DNA of 64,000 nt from Escherichia coli (GCF_022846255.1 NZ_AP025682.1), one strand, 5' to 3'. Counted from the stretch's first letter, positions 30,913 through 36,818 are shown. The notes: a model not told the origin generated them from the sequence alone. Numbers and translations are program-made.

Positions 30913-31806
<894 letters not shown>

Positions 31807-32184: not shown

Positions 32185-33744
32185 TTATTTGATATCCTTC
32201 ACGCGCATACCGTTGAGCTGTTCATCCGTAATGGTGTTGCCCGCTTTGAAGTAATCAACCACCGCGTGATAAACGTAATAACCGCCCGTTGTGTTACGCG
32301 CTTTCCCTTCGGTAAAGGCGGTAAAACCATCTCCACCATCAGCAAGGAAACTCTGAGTAGCAATGTGATAAACCGTCGCATCTTCAATGGGTTTGCCATT
32401 CAGAGTCAGTGTGATTACCCGCTGACCAACCGGCTTGCTGCTGTCGTACTTCATTTCCAGGCCTTTCGATACCTGTAAAACGCCATTGCTTAAACTTGCG
32501 CCGTGTTCCATCAGACTGCGTAATTGTTTACCCGTGAGTTCCATCGTCACCAGTTCGTTGGGGAACGGGAACGTACTGATAACGCCGCCCATCGTGATCG
32601 CCCCTGCGGGGATCTCATTGCGGATACCACCAGAGTTTGTTAACGCCAGTTGGGTATTTTTACCCGCTGCTGCCAGTAAAGCGTCAGCCGCCAGGTTCCC
32701 GAGGGAAGCCGATTCACCATAGGCACGTTTTAATTCAACCGGCGATTGCGCCACCGTTTGTTGCACCACTTCATCAAGCTTTTTATTCCAGCCGTCGATC
32801 ACCTGTTTCGTTTGCGGATCGGGCTTCCACTCGTCAGCGTAAATGGTTTTAAGCTCGAAGTTTTTCACCGTAAAATTATGCGGCTTCTCTTTGTAGTCGA
32901 GAACCAGTTTGCCCACATCAATCCCGCCGCTGTCAGTGGAGAGGATGAGCGTATTGCCGACTTTAATCGGTTCCGGCGTACCCACATGTGCATGTCCGGT
33001 GATCAAAATATCCAGCCCTTTCACCTGACTTGCCGTCTGAATATCTTTATCCAACGCGCGACGCACATCTGTGCCTCCCATACTGGACTGGCGGGCCGGA
33101 ACACCTTCATGGATCAGGGCGACGGTCAAATCAACCTTGCCTTTAAGTTCATCGATATAACGTTGTAGCCATTTAATTTCATCACGCGCCTCAATACCCA
33201 CTCGCGTGGCAGCAGATACTGTGTCATTAAAGGCAAATACACCGTGCAAACCTATAACGCCTATTTTCACACCGTCTTTTTCGATGATGGTATAGGGCTT
33301 ATCCCAGAATGATTTACTGCTGTTCTGATAAAAAACATTGCCCTGCACAATCGGGAATTTTGCCTGACTCAACTGTAATAATGTGTTGTCCCAGCCGTGG
33401 TCAAATTCATGGTTGCCTATCGTGACGGCATCAAACGGCATAGTATTCATAATATCGATAATAGCCTTACCTTTGGTCAGGCTGCTGATATATGGCCCGG
33501 TAAAATAGTCGCCCGCATCAAAAAACCATGTCGCTTTATTTTTTGCTTTTTCTTGCTTAACCAGCGTAGTGATATTTGCCCAGCCGCCAATATCCCGTTT
33601 ACCGTTCGCAATCCACGGCACTTTATAAGGCTCTACATGTGCATGGAGGTCGTTAGTATAAATAATGGTGACATCTTTGGCGCAAGCCCAGAACGGCAAT
33701 GTTAATGCGATACCCGCAGCAAGTATTTTAATTTTCATAAACAA
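32185..33744 (-). CDS. Secreted bifunctional metallophosphatase/5'-nucleotidase (UshA/CpdB family), paralog A, 519 aa
   Basis: Signal peptide [22 protein letters not shown]; metallophosphatase motifs [26 protein letters not shown]; C-terminal 5'-nucleotidase-domain motifs NSGGIR, FPFPN, GGDGF; absent from metL-metF interval in my memory of K-12. Confidence 0.85.
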
Positions 33745-33797
33745 TCCCTTTCAGTGAGATAAAGGATTGCTACATTACGTTCTGAAAGACTTATTTA

Positions 33798-33813
33798 TGT
33801 GAGAGTAATCACA
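33798..33813. promoter_or_regulatory. CRP-type binding site (TGTGA-N6-TCACA) in divergent promoter between paralog A and the zinc-ribbon ORF
   Basis: Sequence TGTGAGAGTAATCACA read directly; perfect match to both CRP half-sites with 6-bp spacer. Confidence 0.5.
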
Positions 33814-33870
33814 TCCGCAGGGGATAGTTGCCGGACAAAATCAACGACCTTGTGAAATCGTTGGTGATAT

Positions 33871-34995
33871 ATGTCGACTCTGTTTACGATTAATGCCTGT
33901 AAAACGTTCGGTTGCCGAAATTTGGGATTGGCCTCATCGGAAGATTACAGTTGGCCAGACTATAAACTGGGTTATCCGGCACTGCACTGTCGGGCATGTG
34001 GAAGTTACCCGCCGTTGTTTGACGAACAGCAATTTCGTGACTGGTTGTCAGTTCACTTATCTACTTTTGCAACTGAGAAAGGTCATTTCTGCCCGGTATG
34101 TTATGGCACAGACATGATTTGTTATGGTCACAATCCACAGGGTTCGCAACGCATTCAATGCCGTAACTGCAAAAAAGTCTGGACGCCTAAAAAATATCAG
34201 AAAGAAATTACGCATCCCCAGGCCATTGAAACCGTTCAACTGTTCATACCCTTTCAAGGGGCCAGTGCAGTACAAAAACTGTATGTTTTAGTCAGTCTTG
34301 ACGCCACTCGTGGCAACATTCTTCATCTCTCCACGAATTATACGCAACATCAGACAGGAGACAGTCTGCGGTACAGTTACAAGGGCAACACAGAACCAAC
34401 TATGCACCATCGCGATATCGTGCAGAAGGTAGATATGCGTGAAGCGCAATTCTTGCGCCGGAGCCAGTTCGATGAAATTCAGTATGGCAGTGCTGTACTC
34501 AAGCGCAACGGTAAGGGAGCCATACTACGCCCGGTTATCACGGCACACGGGCATTTCAGAATACTGAAAATCCGCTATCCAGATGTCAAAACGCATATTA
34601 TTTCACACGAATGTTTTCTAAGAGGCGCAATTATTACAGCCTGGGCAGATCAGTTCCGCCAACAACAAGGTGAACTTTGGTTCGTAGAAGAAGAAATCAG
34701 TGACAGTAACGCTGATACGCCCTGGCATTTTAAGGGAACGACATACCATGGTTGGTGGCAAAATCAGTGGCAGCGCTGGGAGCAGGGGAATAACTGCAAG
34801 ATGGTCTGCCTACTCACGGGAGCCTGCTTAGAAAGGGGCGCAAATGTTTCTCTGGCAACCAGTCGTTGTTTTATCACATGGCTGACAGACCAACACGACT
34901 TTACCCAAAGCGCGTTATTATCCGCAGGTCGCGTAACACAAATGCTGACCTCACTGGCGTTAAAATACAATGAATCGCTCACTCCATCTTGTTAG
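33871..34995 (+). CDS. Hypothetical cytoplasmic protein with N-terminal tandem CxxC zinc ribbons (InsA-like), 374 aa; function unknown
   Basis: ATG start at 33871; four CxxC pairs in first ~100 aa (CKTFGC, CRACG, CPVCYG...QRIQCRNCKKVW); no signal peptide; long uninterrupted ORF in AT-rich island. Confidence 0.6.
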   Translation: MSTLFTINACKTFGCRNLGLASSEDYSWPDYKLGYPALHCRACGSYPPLFDEQQFRDWLSVHLSTFATEKGHFCPVCYGTDMICYGHNPQGSQRIQCRNCKKVWTPKKYQKEITHPQAIETVQLFIPFQGASAVQKLYVLVSLDATRGNILHLSTNYTQHQTGDSLRYSYKGNTEPTMHHRDIVQKVDMREAQFLRRSQFDEIQYGSAVLKRNGKGAILRPVITAHGHFRILKIRYPDVKTHIISHECFLRGAIITAWADQFRQQQGELWFVEEEISDSNADTPWHFKGTTYHGWWQNQWQRWEQGNNCKMVCLLTGACLERGANVSLATSRCFITWLTDQHDFTQSALLSAGRVTQMLTSLALKYNESLTPSC

Positions 34996-35224
34996 TCAAT
35001 ACACTCGACAAACGACCATAAATTAAGAGAGAGCACTACCTTTCATTTAATTAAATATATAAATGTATGACCGTGAAATATAATCATGGTCAATGTTTAA
35101 TTAATAACATTATTTGTTACTAAGATCACACAATACTTTTCTGAACTATGCTTACATAAAATAAGACACGATGTGTCTTTTATTTAAATAATTCAACAAA
35201 TGTAACACACCCTATCCAGGAGGG

Positions 35225-36778
35225 ATGATGAAAACTGTATTTACAACATTATCAGTCATATTCGGCGTGATATTTTCTCACAGTGTTCTAGCTCAGGACG
35301 TTACTATTTATTATACGAATGACATTCACGCACATGTCAATCCGGCAAAAATCATCGCTGTTGATAAGAACAGACTTATAGGTGGTATGGCTAATATTGC
35401 AGGCATCGTTAATGAAGCGAAGAAAAAAAGCAAAGATGTGTTTTTCTTTGATGCAGGCGACTATTTTACCGGGCCGTATATCAGCACCCTGACCAAAGGT
35501 GAAGCTATTATTGATATCATGAACACTATGCCCTTTGATGCGGTGTCTGTTGGTAATCACGAGTTCGATCACGGTGTGCCCAATATGGTGTCTCAGTTAT
35601 CAAAAGCAAAATTTCCCATTCTGCTGGGAAATATCTACTACACCGATACGAATAAACCAGTTTGGGATCATCCGTGGACCATTATCGAAAAAGATGGTTT
35701 AAAGATTGGTGTGATTGGATTGCATGGCGCATTCGCTTTCTATGATACAGTCGCGGCAAAAGCACGTGAAGGCGTAGAAGCCAGAGACGAAATTAAATAT
35801 TTAAATAAAGCACTTGCAGAATTAAAAGGTAAAGTCGACATTACCGTTTTGCTAATTCACGAAGGTGTCCCGGCGCGTCAATCAAGCTTTGGTAGTAAAG
35901 ATGTGGAGCGGCTACTACAGGCAGATATTGAGACAGCTAAAAAAGTGAATGGTGTTGATGTCTTAATTACCGGTCACGCACATGTCGGAACACCGCAACC
36001 AATAAAAGTTAATAACACATTAATTGTATCTACCGATGCATACGGCACCAACATCGGAAAACTTGTGCTTGATTACAATCCGAAAACGAAGAAAATTGAT
36101 AGTTATAATGGTGAGTTAATCACCATCTTTGCAGATCAATTTAAACCTGACACCATCGTTCAAAATACTATTGATAAATGGAGTGCAAAGCTTAACAAAA
36201 TAACACAGGAAGTTGTCGGCCATTCTCCCGTAGTTTTAACACGTGAGTATGGTAGTTCCTCTTCTACCGGCAACCTTATTCTTGATGCAATGATGGAAAA
36301 AACACCTGATGCCGTTGCCGGATTTCAAAATAGCGGTGGGATGCGAGCTGATTTTCCTAAAGGCGATATCACACTGGGAGATGTTATTAGCACATTCCCC
36401 TTTAATAATGACCTCATCGAGATGGATTTGACGGGCCGCGATCTCAAATCATTGATGACGCATGCAACCAATCTAACTAACGGTGTGTTACAAGTTTCTA
36501 AAAGTGTTGCGGTTGTCTATGACAGCAAAAAACCACTCAACCAACGGTTAATCTCTTTCACCATTAACGGCAAACCCGTGGAAGATAATCAAACATATCG
36601 TATTGCCACGCACTCCTTTTGTGCCAGTGGTGGTGACGGTTTTGAAGCATTTTTGAATGGAAAAAATGTGAAAACGATACCGGGAACAACCTCGGCGGAA
36701 TCTATCATCGATTATTTCAAAAATCACAAGCCTATCACCCCAGACTTAACTAAACGAGTCATGGACGTCGCCAAATAA
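35225..36778 (+). CDS. Secreted bifunctional metallophosphatase/5'-nucleotidase (UshA/CpdB family), paralog B, 517 aa
   Basis: Strong SD (AGGAGGG) then MMKTVFTTLSVIFGVIFSHSVLAQDVTIYYTNDIHAHV...; same motif set as paralog A (GDYFTG, GNHEFD, GHAHVG, NSGGMR, GGDGF). Confidence 0.85.
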   Translation: MMKTVFTTLSVIFGVIFSHSVLAQDVTIYYTNDIHAHVNPAKIIAVDKNRLIGGMANIAGIVNEAKKKSKDVFFFDAGDYFTGPYISTLTKGEAIIDIMNTMPFDAVSVGNHEFDHGVPNMVSQLSKAKFPILLGNIYYTDTNKPVWDHPWTIIEKDGLKIGVIGLHGAFAFYDTVAAKAREGVEARDEIKYLNKALAELKGKVDITVLLIHEGVPARQSSFGSKDVERLLQADIETAKKVNGVDVLITGHAHVGTPQPIKVNNTLIVSTDAYGTNIGKLVLDYNPKTKKIDSYNGELITIFADQFKPDTIVQNTIDKWSAKLNKITQEVVGHSPVVLTREYGSSSSTGNLILDAMMEKTPDAVAGFQNSGGMRADFPKGDITLGDVISTFPFNNDLIEMDLTGRDLKSLMTHATNLTNGVLQVSKSVAVVYDSKKPLNQRLISFTINGKPVEDNQTYRIATHSFCASGGDGFEAFLNGKNVKTIPGTTSAESIIDYFKNHKPITPDLTKRVMDVAK

Positions 36779-36818
36779 AATCTCATTTATCAGTCAATTT
36801 ATTTAACAAGGAATGTGA

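What the first reader, a model, noticed from the sequence alone, without database searches (positions are those of the whole stretch)
34996..35224. AT-rich leader upstream of the B-C-porin genes with two palindromes
Seen: the 229-bp spacer is very AT-rich and contains a near-palindrome TGACCGTGAAATATAATCATGGTCA (35068..35092) and a perfect 7-3-7 inverted repeat AAGACACGATGTGTCTT (35163..35179) about 45 bp upstream of the strong Shine-Dalgarno of paralog B. Inference: candidate operators for the zinc-ribbon protein or another regulator, or an attenuator/terminator for the upstream gene; AT-richness also suggests H-NS silencing of horizontally acquired DNA.
Basis: partly seen in the sequence, partly recalled or inferred. 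Interest (0 to 1): 0.35.

Follow-up and report, generated by a model that had tools for sequence, protein, structure and literature searches.

The report
Terminator-then-CRP-promoter spacer before nucleotidase operon

Summary
Both palindromes are at the stated coordinates and the spacer is very AT-rich (GC 0.29). Inverted repeats of these sizes arise in 21-30% of shuffles of the spacer, so they are not above chance.

Palindrome 2 (35163-35179) is perfect in only 84 of 658 E. coli genomes that carry the locus. It is a derived C->T change, and it is degraded to 6/7 or 5/7 pairs elsewhere with no compensation. It is probably not a functional element.

Palindrome 1 (35068-35092) is the core of a longer + strand RNA hairpin (35060-35099, -14.6 kcal/mol, z -5.3). 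Its outer stem survives allele divergence through one compensatory change and three wobble-compatible changes. It is most likely a 3' hairpin or weak terminator of the upstream gene.

Only three sites this good occur in the 64 kb. A second, perfect and conserved across genera, sits in the island's other promoter spacer. An extended -10 (TGcTTACAT) would place CRP at -41.5.

The upstream "zinc-ribbon protein" has a DDE-transposase fold, and nothing links it to the palindromes. This is an ordinary, previously unannotated promoter region of low interest.

The parts
34996..35227 (+). Spacer between the stop of the transposase-like gene (hyp374) and the RefSeq start codon of 5'-nucleotidase paralog B. 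GC is 0.29.
35021..35052 (+). First predicted RNA hairpin after the hyp374 stop (AAUUAAG.GAGAG...CUUUC.UUUAAUU). 12 pairs were counted: 9 invariant, 2 change on one side and still pair, and 1 is mostly unpaired.
   Evidence: (I2)
35060..35099 (+). It has a 16-pair stem with 3 G.U pairs, which exist only on the + strand RNA, at -14.6 kcal/mol. It is a candidate 3' hairpin or weak terminator of hyp374.
35115..35130 (.). CRP-consensus core TGTTA-N6-TCACA (9/10), centred at 35122.5. The half-sites are invariant in the 12 sequences and two alleles compared. This is the proposed activator site of the nucB-nucC-tsx promoter.
35149..35157 (+). Candidate extended -10, TGcTTACAT. It would give a transcription start near A35164 and place CRP at -41.5. 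This is inferred, not mapped, and the hexamer lacks the -11 A.
   Evidence: read; geometry compared with the hyp374 promoter
35163..35179 (.). It is perfect only in a minority allele. It overlaps the -35-like hexamer AAGACA of an alternative sigma-70-like match.
35187..35192 (+). Alternative -10-like hexamer AATAAT, found with AAGACA 18 nt upstream (9/12 match in the scan). It would put CRP at about -76.5, which is out of phase for class I activation.
35190..35206 (-). CytR-like direct repeat of octamers, AATTCAAC-A-AATGTAAC (7/8 and 8/8 to AATGYAAC, 1-bp spacer). The statistics are unusual, but the repeat lies 59 bp downstream of the CRP core.
35218..35230 (+). Shine-Dalgarno AGGAGGG followed by tandem ATG ATG. 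RefSeq uses the ATG at 35228.
35228..39375 (+). Downstream unit: 5'-nucleotidase B (to 36778), 5'-nucleotidase C (36819-38438) and a Tsx-family nucleoside porin (38515-39375).
33871..34995 (+). hyp374: two N-terminal Cys4 zinc ribbons (InsA/IS1-like, below threshold) plus a DDE transposase/integrase-fold core.
33798..33813 (.). Context: a perfect CRP core, TGTGAGAGTAATCACA, in the middle of the divergent nucA/hyp374 spacer. The half-sites are conserved across genera while the N6 spacer varies.

Best explanation
The spacer is a conventional 'end of one transcript, start of the next' region inside an accessory nucleotide-scavenging island that lies between metF and metL.

Step 1 (shown as sequence and structure; function inferred). 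Two + strand RNA hairpins sit 25-104 nt after the hyp374 stop. The second has palindrome 1 at its core. They mark, stabilise or partly terminate the hyp374 transcript.

Step 2 (site shown; binding and activation inferred). Sixteen nucleotides downstream of the second hairpin, a single CRP site at 35115-35130 recruits RNA polymerase to a promoter that lacks a -35 element. The most likely form is a class II promoter using the extended -10 TGcTTACAT, with a start near A35164. The nucleotidase B, nucleotidase C and Tsx-porin genes would then be switched on when cAMP is high, as the island's other promoter appears to be.

Step 3 (shown by comparison). Palindrome 2 is not a conserved element. Its perfect form comes from a recent C->T change in a minority lineage. 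At most it forms a small stem at the extreme 5' end of the mRNA in those strains.
For: Context:
- The window matches E. coli of the CFT073/Nissle type. The five island genes lie between metF and metL. The island has been described as GR31, with no regulation reported (PMC12928451).

CRP site:
- TGTTACTAAGATCACA is one of only 3 sites in the 64 kb with at most 1 mismatch to TGTGA-N6-TCACA. Another of the three is a perfect site in the island's divergent nucA/hyp374 spacer.
- Chance of a site this good in shuffles of the leader is 0.014. Chance of a perfect site in the 126-nt divergent spacer is 0.0004.
- The divergent-spacer site keeps TGTGA/TCACA perfect in 13, and within one mismatch in 17, of the 19 fetched loci that hold this spacer (Escherichia, Citrobacter, Enterobacter, Pseudocitrobacter and Phytobacter), while its N6 spacer varies; the Rahnella and Silvania loci have only a weaker match there.
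- The leader site is closer to consensus than the two known deoP2 CRP sites read from K-12.
- It is the only one of 8 transcription-factor consensus sequences tested that exceeds chance.
- Its half-sites are identical in both alleles, across 12 sequences.
- In loci where nucB' lies directly downstream of nucA', there is no CRP site upstream of nucB'. That fits a separate promoter being needed only in this arrangement.

Hairpins:
- The extended hairpin folds at -14.6 kcal/mol, z -5.3.
- Between alleles it shows 1 compensatory C-G to U-A change, plus G.U to G-C, A-U to G.U and G.U to A-U changes that all keep pairing, against 2 broken pairs at the top of the stem.
- The scan flags it as terminator-like.

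Palindrome 2:
- It is perfect in 84 of 658 genomes.
- Its two variable pairs are broken without compensation.
- Its hairpin is -6.5 kcal/mol in the window against -3.1 elsewhere.
Against: - No transcription start or 3' end data were found for this locus, so the promoter position and termination are both inferred.
- The proposed -10 (TTACAT) lacks the -11 A. The better hexamers TATGCT and TAAAAT would put CRP at about -36.5 or -46.5, neither of which is a standard position.
- After correcting for 8 consensus sequences tested, the leader CRP match alone is only marginal.
- Only two alleles of the leader exist in all collections searched. The 42-nt block without fixed differences (35089-35130) is not significant (P 0.35).
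- The U-tract after hairpin 1 is interrupted (AAUGUUUAAUU), so it would be a poor intrinsic terminator. In the 91% allele the hairpin weakens to -8.3 kcal/mol (z -1.8).
Confidence: 0.55

Rival explanations
1. Read-through operon. hyp374, nucB, nucC and tsx are one transcript driven by the conserved CRP-dependent hyp374 promoter. The spacer is only an intercistronic gap whose hairpins tune relative expression or stability, and the CRP-like site in it is a chance match.
For: - All four genes are on the same strand, and hyp374 has a perfect conserved CRP site with a plausible -10 (CAAAAT) at class II spacing.
- Neither hairpin is followed by a canonical uninterrupted U-tract.
- In other genera, nucB' sits behind nucA' with only a hairpin-bearing spacer of 110-190 nt and no CRP site.
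- The leader CRP match is marginal after multiple-testing correction.
Against: - A 232-nt, 29% GC spacer with a 9/10 CRP core about 105 nt before the start codon is typical of a promoter region.
- A match this good occurs in only 1.4% of shuffles.
- The strong hairpin immediately upstream of the site fits the layout of a terminator followed by a promoter.
Confidence: 0.2
2. CytR/CRP nucleoside-regulon control, as an addition to the main explanation. The direct repeat AATTCAAC-A-AATGTAAC at 35190-35206 binds the CytR repressor and blocks transcription unless cytidine or adenosine is present, as for the chromosomal tsx, deo, udp and cdd genes.
For: - The octamers match AATGYAAC at 7/8 and 8/8 with a 1-bp spacer. 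That is the configuration selected by SELEX and conserved at cytR and cdd, according to PMC3454398.
- Such a pair occurs in 0.1% of leader shuffles. Scored against the fixed octamer GTTGCATT it is the only one in the 64 kb.
- It is closer to consensus than the octamers found in the K-12 deoP2 and tsx regions.
- Both octamers are identical in the two alleles, and only the 1-bp spacer differs.
- The function fits, since Tsx is a classical CytR target.
Against: - The defining architecture, a CytR operator adjacent to or between CRP sites 10-40 bp apart (PMC3454398), is not met. The pair lies 59 bp downstream of the only good CRP core, and the adjacent CRP-like 16-mer has 4 mismatches.
- It would lie in the 5' UTR or over the transcription start.
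- A comparable pair occurs inside the nucB coding sequence (window 36461-36477), so such pairs can arise without function.
- The test was made after the fact.
Confidence: 0.2
3. One reading: the two palindromes are operators for the island's zinc-ribbon protein or another dimeric regulator.
For: - The outer dyad TGACYG...CRGTCA of palindrome 1 is kept by a compensatory change.
- hyp374 has InsA-like zinc ribbons, and transposase-type proteins do bind specific DNA ends.
Against: - Palindromes of this size are expected by chance.
- Palindrome 2 decays without compensation.
- The inner half of palindrome 1 varies (GTGA, GTTA, GAAA).
- Three of the pairing-preserving changes work only as G.U pairs in + strand RNA, not as DNA symmetry.
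- No motif or inverted repeat is shared with the conserved hyp374/nucA spacer, where an autoregulator would be expected to bind.
- In most genomes hyp374 exists without this leader at all.
Confidence: 0.05
4. Palindrome 2 plus its T-run is an attenuator or terminator, possibly bidirectional, in front of nucB.
For: - The scan flags it on both strands, with a T-rich tail TTTTATTT.
- Other genera have a strong hairpin followed by (T)TATTTAAAC or GTTTAAAC about 35 nt before the nucB' start, in an analogous position.
Against: - Its stability is only -6.5 kcal/mol in the window.
- It falls to -3.1 kcal/mol (z about -0.4) in CFT073-type sequences and in the 91% allele, which together make up about 87% of genomes with the locus.
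- There is no sequence homology to the hairpins of other genera.
Confidence: 0.05
5. H-NS overlay: the AT-rich spacer nucleates H-NS and silences the acquired operon, and CRP or another factor counteracts it.
For: - GC is 0.29, in the lowest 0.3% of windows in the 64 kb.
- The island is accessory and lower in GC than its flanks.
Against: - The best match to the H-NS nucleation motif is 8/10, which occurs in 50% of shuffles.
- No binding data are available, and low GC is usual for E. coli promoter regions.
Confidence: 0.3

Closest known systems
Class II CRP-dependent promoters with an extended -10 (galP1 type) and single-site CRP promoters of catabolic operons
   Same: - A single TGTGA-N6-TCACA-type site (9/10).
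- No recognisable -35 hexamer.
- A TGn motif directly in front of a weak -10 hexamer, at the distance that puts CRP at -41.5.
- Catabolic or scavenging cargo genes.
   Different: - The transcription start is not mapped.
- The -10 hexamer TTACAT lacks the -11 A.
- CRP binding has not been tested.
- The comparison with galP1 rests on my own knowledge of that promoter, not on a tool result.
CytR/CRP-regulated nucleoside promoters of E. coli K-12 (tsx-P2, deoP2, udp, cdd, cytR)
   Same: - The gene content is functionally related (a Tsx-family porin and nucleotide/nucleoside catabolism).
- A CRP site is present.
- A near-consensus direct repeat of CytR octamers with a 1-bp spacer is present, as at cytR and cdd (PMC3454398).
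   Different: - There are no tandem CRP sites flanking the octamers.
- The octamers lie 59 bp downstream of the CRP core, near the ribosome-binding site.
- No DeoR operator is present: the best match is 11/16, P 0.23-0.24.
Rho-independent terminators / 3' stabilising hairpins
   Same: A stable stem-loop 65-104 nt after a stop codon, followed by U-rich sequence.
   Different: - The stem is AU-rich, with 4 G-C among the inner 9 pairs.
- The U-tract is interrupted.
- The stem is weaker in the second allele.
The island's own nucA/hyp374 divergent promoter
   Same: A CRP core, and a distance from the CRP centre to the candidate -10 (29.5-30.5 nt) consistent with class II geometry.
   Different: - That site is perfect and conserved across genera.
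- The leader site has one mismatch (TGTTA) and is found only in E. coli genomes with the B-C-porin unit.
- There is no sequence homology between the two regions.

Membership tests
CRP-dependent (class II) promoter | 22-bp site with a TGTGA-N6-TCACA core | tested here: met
   TGTTACTAAGATCACA matches 9/10. P is 0.014 in shuffles, and it is 1 of 3 such sites in the 64 kb.
CRP-dependent (class II) promoter | Site centred near -41.5 from a mapped transcription start | not testable with these tools
   No start-site data were found. The geometry fits only if TGcTTACAT is the -10. The better hexamers give -36.5 or -46.5.
CRP-dependent (class II) promoter | CRP-cAMP binding and crp-dependent expression | not testable with these tools
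   This needs a gel shift or footprint and crp-deletion reporter assays.
CRP-dependent (class II) promoter | Site conserved in orthologous promoters | tested here: inconclusive
   The half-sites are identical in both alleles. Only two alleles exist, and the conserved block is not significant (P 0.35). No orthologous leader exists in other genera.
Rho-independent terminator (palindrome 1 / hairpin 35060-35099) | Stable stem-loop | tested here: met
   -14.6 kcal/mol, z -5.3 in the window. -8.3 kcal/mol, z -1.8 in the 91% allele.
Rho-independent terminator (palindrome 1 / hairpin 35060-35099) | Uninterrupted U-tract directly after the stem | tested here: inconclusive
   The tail is AAUGUUUAAUU after the inner stem and AUUAAUAACAUUAUUU after the extended stem. 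It passes the loose scan (5 T in 8) but is not a contiguous U run.
Rho-independent terminator / attenuator (palindrome 2) | Stable stem-loop conserved among strains | tested here: not met
   -6.5 kcal/mol in the window and -3.1 kcal/mol (z about -0.4) in CFT073 and the 91% allele. 2 of 7 pairs are broken without compensation. The palindrome is perfect in 84 of 658 genomes.
CytR operator (CytR/CRP nucleoside regulon) | Repeats of the octamer GTTRCATT/AATGYAAC with permitted spacing | tested here: met
   AATTCAAC-A-AATGTAAC matches 7/8 and 8/8 with a 1-bp spacer. P is 0.001.
CytR operator (CytR/CRP nucleoside regulon) | Operator adjacent to or flanked by CRP sites (CRP sites 10-40 bp apart) | tested here: not met
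   The pair is 59 bp from the only good CRP core, and the neighbouring CRP-like 16-mer has 4 mismatches.
DeoR operator | 16-bp palindrome TGTTAGAA.TTCTAACA (verified in K-12 deoO1/O2) | tested here: not met
   The best match is 11/16. That is reached in about 23-24% of shuffles.
Known structured RNA (riboswitch, leader, sRNA) in Rfam | Match to an Rfam covariance model | tested here: not met
   0 matches at E <= 1 over 33700-39700, both strands.
H-NS-bound AT-rich acquired DNA | AT-rich tract in horizontally acquired DNA | tested here: met
   GC is 0.29, and the island is present in 12% of complete genomes.
H-NS-bound AT-rich acquired DNA | H-NS occupancy and hns-dependent silencing | not testable with these tools
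   No ChIP data are available. The nucleation-motif match is at chance level.
Repeated or mobile element (REP, MITE, IS end) | Multiple copies per genome, or terminal inverted repeats | tested here: not met
   There is one place per genome in 658 genomes. There are no inverted repeats between the cassette ends or between the two flanks of hyp374.

The most novel reading that the evidence does not exclude
The island is a CRP-controlled (possibly also CytR-controlled) nucleotide/DNA-scavenging module built around a domesticated DDE-transposase-like protein, hyp374. In every genus examined, hyp374 is paired head-to-head with a periplasmic 5'-nucleotidase gene, and in nearly all of those loci the two genes share a central CRP-consensus site. 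In the most novel reading, hyp374 is not a dead transposase. It would be a sequence-specific DNA-binding regulator or nuclease of the module, and the conserved outer dyad TGACYG-N13-CRGTCA of palindrome 1 would be one of its binding sites.
Probability: 0.05. Interest if true: 0.6.

Novelty: new member of a known kind. Interest (0 to 1): 0.2.

Why it matters
The metL-metF island is one of the regions shared by extraintestinal pathogenic and probiotic B2-type E. coli (CFT073, Nissle 1917, LF82, APEC). It carries three UshA-like nucleotidases and a Tsx-like porin, and its function and regulation are undescribed (PMC12928451).

CRP-consensus sites in front of both transcription units give a concrete, cheap-to-test prediction: the module is a catabolite-controlled nucleotide/nucleoside scavenging system. 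They also tell experimenters which bases to mutate, namely 35115-35130 rather than the palindromes.

For genome scanning, the case shows that short perfect palindromes in AT-rich spacers are weak evidence, and that a comparison between strains can dismiss them quickly.

Tried and rejected
Structured RNA: Rfam at E <= 1 gave nothing.

Repeated or mobile element:
- There is a single copy per genome.
- There is no similarity to the rest of the window.
- There are no inverted or direct repeats between the two ends of the B-C-porin cassette or between the two flanks of hyp374.

Homologous leaders in other genera:
- A scan of 100,044 species representatives with the nucB protein returned 16 loci. 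All carry other arrangements, and none has sequence similar to the leader.
- A metagenome scan with the CRP-site pattern returned 67 loci. Only 2 are true copies, both of the 91% allele. A 30-nt match in L031 lies inside an unrelated ORF and is chance.

Other consensus sequences: DeoR, PhoB, FNR, Fur, ArcA, IHF and the H-NS motif all scored at chance level.

Shared motifs between spacers:
- GTGAAAT and GACC occur in both palindrome 1 and the hyp374 5' region. This was rejected because that part is not conserved across genera.
- TTTCNGAAC occurs in both the nucA and nucB promoters. This was rejected because it is altered in the 91% allele.

A second CRP site for a tandem arrangement: none was found with fewer than 3 mismatches.

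Conservation of the block 35089-35130: not significant.

Leader peptides: only 3-6 codon ORFs without a Shine-Dalgarno sequence (read).

Literature: no start-site map, locus-tag mention or regulation data for this locus.

Structure of hyp374: the first prediction, from a shallow 19-sequence alignment, failed (pLDDT 38). The 55-sequence alignment succeeded (pLDDT 94).

Full report
**Where this is.** The window is 99.5% identical to E. coli of the CFT073 / Nissle 1917 / LF82 type over 33800-39500. The finding lies in a five-gene accessory island between metF (30913-31803, -) and metL (39593-42025, -). The five genes are:

| Gene | Coordinates | Strand |
|---|---|---|
| 5'-nucleotidase paralog A (nucA) | 32185-33738 | - |
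| Cysteine-rich hypothetical protein of 374 aa (hyp374) | 33871-34995 | + |
| Nucleotidase B | 35228-36778 | + |
| Nucleotidase C | 36819-38438 | + |
| Tsx-family nucleoside porin | 38515-39375 | + |

. The three nucleotidases are 55-65% identical to each other. The island has been described as 'GR31 metL..metF' in ExPEC/APEC genomes, with a proposed nucleoside-processing role and nothing on regulation (PMC12928451).

**Checking the observation.** RefSeq starts nucB at the second ATG (35228), so the spacer is 34996-35227. Its GC content is 0.288, and only 0.3% of 229-nt windows in the 64 kb are as low.

The palindromes are not statistically remarkable. In dinucleotide-preserving shuffles of the spacer, a perfect 7-nt-arm inverted repeat occurs in 21%. 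A 9-nt-arm repeat with at most one mismatch occurs in 30%, and both occur in 14%.

**What comparison with other strains shows.** The leader is found once per genome in 658 of 5426 complete E. coli genomes. It occurs as two alleles: about 99% identical (560 genomes) and about 91% identical (98 genomes). Alignments of 6 and 12 sequences were made.

*Palindrome 2.*
- The left arm AAGACAC is invariant.
- The right arm is GTGTCTT in the window, GTGCCTT in CFT073 and TUM13773, and GTTCCTT in the 91% allele.
- The 91% allele and the common B2 allele both have C at 35176. The T that makes the palindrome perfect is therefore a derived change.
- The exact 33-mer around the palindrome occurs in 84 of 658 genomes, and 470 differ at one base.
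- Two of its seven pairs are broken in most sequences with no compensation.
- As RNA, the stem is -6.5 kcal/mol in the window. It is -3.1 kcal/mol (z about -0.4) in CFT073 and in the 91% allele.
- I conclude that palindrome 2 is not a selected element.

*Palindrome 1.*
- Read as + strand RNA, it is the core of a 16-pair hairpin, UAAAUGU-A-UGACCGUGA [AAUAUAA] UCAUGGUCA-AUGUUUA, at 35060-35099.
- The hairpin folds at -14.6 kcal/mol with z -5.3, and no shuffle of 200 folds as well.
- Three of its pairs are G.U, which exist only on this strand.
- Between alleles, one pair changes on both sides (C-G to U-A). Three change on one side and still pair (G.U to G-C, A-U to G.U, G.U to A-U). The two pairs at the top of the stem are lost, leaving -8.3 kcal/mol. 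One strain has GTGA changed to GTTA.
- A second, smaller hairpin at 35021-35052 behaves similarly.
- With only two lineages this is suggestive and not proof. The pattern fits an RNA hairpin better than a protein-binding DNA dyad.
- The hairpin starts 65 nt after the hyp374 stop and is flagged as terminator-like. Its U-tract is interrupted, so I regard it as a 3' hairpin or weak terminator.

- Between the palindromes lies TGTTACTAAGATCACA (35115-35130), which matches the CRP core TGTGA-N6-TCACA at 9 of 10 positions.
- Only three sites this good exist in the 64 kb. A second of them is a perfect site, TGTGAGAGTAATCACA (33798-33813), in the middle of the divergent nucA/hyp374 spacer.
- Chance expectations are 0.014 for the leader site and 0.0004 for the perfect site.
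- I fetched related loci from other species and mapped their genes. The hyp374/nucA pair is widespread, often alone between metL and metF.
- Its central CRP core keeps both half-sites perfect in 13, and within one mismatch in 17, of the 19 fetched loci that hold the spacer (Escherichia, Citrobacter, Enterobacter, Pseudocitrobacter, Phytobacter). The six spacer bases vary freely, which is the classic signature of a functional site. The Rahnella and Silvania loci have only a weaker match there.
- That site lies 65.5 nt from the hyp374 start codon and 67.5 nt from the nucA start codon. Conserved -10-like hexamers sit at class II distance on both sides.
- The island is therefore very probably under CRP control, and the leader site fits that pattern.
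- The leader site is nearer to consensus than the two known CRP sites of deoP2, which I read from the K-12 genome.
- It is the only one of eight transcription-factor consensus sequences that exceeds chance in the leader.
- In genera where nucB' follows nucA' directly, there is no CRP site before nucB'. That fits a separate promoter being needed only in the arrangement seen here.

**Where the promoter is.** This is inference.
- With the CRP centre at 35122.5, a class II promoter would start near 35164. At the right place there is an extended -10, TGcTTACAT (35149-57), but its hexamer lacks the -11 A.
- The better hexamers TATGCT (35147-52) and TAAAAT (35157-62) would place CRP at about -36.5 and -46.5.
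- The only match from the sigma-70 scan, AAGACA-18-AATAAT (35163-92), would place CRP at about -76.5.
- No start-site data for this locus could be found.
- If the start is near 35164, palindrome 2 would be the first 17 nt of the mRNA. That is a curiosity in the 13% of strains where it pairs.

**CytR and other regulators.**
- The chromosomal tsx gene is a CytR/CRP/DeoR target, so I checked all three.
- The DeoR operator sequence was verified in K-12. Its best match in the leader is 11/16, at chance level.
- For CytR, the sequence AATTCAAC-A-AATGTAAC (35190-35206) is a direct repeat of the octamer AATGYAAC, matching 7/8 and 8/8 with a 1-bp spacer. This is the configuration reported from SELEX and conserved at cytR and cdd (PMC3454398).
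- Such a pair occurs in 0.1% of shuffles. Scored against the fixed octamer GTTGCATT it is the only one in the 64 kb.
- It nevertheless fails the architectural requirement of lying next to or between CRP sites. It is 59 bp downstream of the CRP core, and a similar pair occurs inside the nucB coding sequence.
- I keep it as a secondary hypothesis.

**The 'zinc-ribbon protein'.**
- hyp374 has no Pfam family. Residues 74-105 match the InsA/IS1/IS1595 zinc ribbon below threshold.
- A profile search found distant relatives of 400-570 aa.
- With a 55-sequence alignment, AlphaFold2 gave pLDDT 94 and pTM 0.93. A 19-sequence alignment had failed.
- D144, D201 and E247 are conserved among the close relatives, and E247 nearly throughout the family.
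- hyp374 is therefore a transposase-like protein and not a recognisable transcription factor.
- Its two flanks share no inverted repeat. In most genomes its stop codon abuts metL with no leader at all.
- Nothing links it to the palindromes.

**Origin of the leader.**
- I compared the window with loci that have only hyp374 and nucA. The B-C-porin unit, including the whole leader, is an insertion between about codon 367 of hyp374 and the metL stop codon.
- No terminal repeats flank the insertion.
- The leader has no detectable homologue in any other fetched locus.

**Verdict.** The spacer is an ordinary intergenic region with a hairpin followed by a promoter. Palindrome 1 is part of a probable 3' RNA hairpin. 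Palindrome 2 is a recent accident. The most credible regulatory signal is an unannotated CRP site between them. It is a new member of a well-known kind and of low general interest. It is useful for anyone studying this ExPEC-associated island.

Noticed in passing
window 33798-33813 (and L001-L021, hyp374/nucA spacers): A perfect CRP core, TGTGA-N6-TCACA, lies at the centre of the divergent nucA/hyp374 spacer. It is 65.5 nt from the hyp374 start codon and 67.5 nt from the nucA start codon. The half-sites are conserved across at least five genera while the N6 spacer varies. It is probably one CRP dimer serving two class II promoters.
   Followed up: partly
[not shown]
   Followed up: partly
window 33842-33863: The dyad/hairpin CAACGACCTTGTGAAATCGTTG lies between the hyp374 -10 and its start codon. 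Its right half, GAAATCGTTGGTG, is nearly invariant across genera. It may be a 5' UTR structure, an operator, or part of the ribosome-binding site.
   Followed up: no
window 33769-33790: The block TAC(A/T)TTACGTTCTGAAAG in the nucA promoter is conserved across genera beyond what a -10 hexamer would need. It contains the partial palindrome CAnnACGTnnTG and a 7/8 CytR-like octamer (GCTACATT). It may be an operator.
   Followed up: no
window 35190-35206 and 36461-36477: Two direct-repeat pairs of CytR-like octamers with 1-bp spacers. One lies just upstream of the nucB ribosome-binding site and the other inside the nucB coding sequence.
   Followed up: partly
window ~34972-35000 and 39593-39595: These are the junctions of the B-C-porin insertion relative to genomes that carry only hyp374 and nucA. 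The last ~7 codons of hyp374 differ. The metL stop codon is TAG here against TAA where hyp374 abuts metL.
   Followed up: partly
L006-L011 (Citrobacter, Enterobacter, E. albertii and a second locus of E. coli SCPM-O-B-8794): An alternative gene order occurs: hyp374 divergent from nucA', then nucB' (sometimes two copies), tsx' and nucC' on one strand. Strong hairpins (-13 to -16 kcal/mol), followed by an A/T-rich tail (TTATTTAAAC, GTTTAAAC or TTTAATAAAA), lie about 35 nt before the nucB' start. One E. coli genome carries both this cluster and the metL-metF pair.
   Followed up: partly
window 38439-38514: The nucC-tsx spacer is also very AT-rich (the window 38400-38599 has GC 0.29). It contains TTATAAT (38447-38453) and ATGACA-17-AACAAT, so the porin gene may have an internal promoter.
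   Followed up: no
H1 (NZ_CP061206.1) and L003 (NZ_AP045773.1): Natural disruptions of the island exist. Strain DA61218 has an IS1 insertion within the region, and strain 23CRST013 has a truncated Tsx-like pseudogene.
   Followed up: no
window 39473-39492 (- strand): A canonical GC-rich terminator, GCCCCCGGTAATAAGGGGGC followed by TTTTGTG, lies about 100 nt downstream of the metL stop on the minus strand, between the Tsx-like gene and metL.
   Followed up: no
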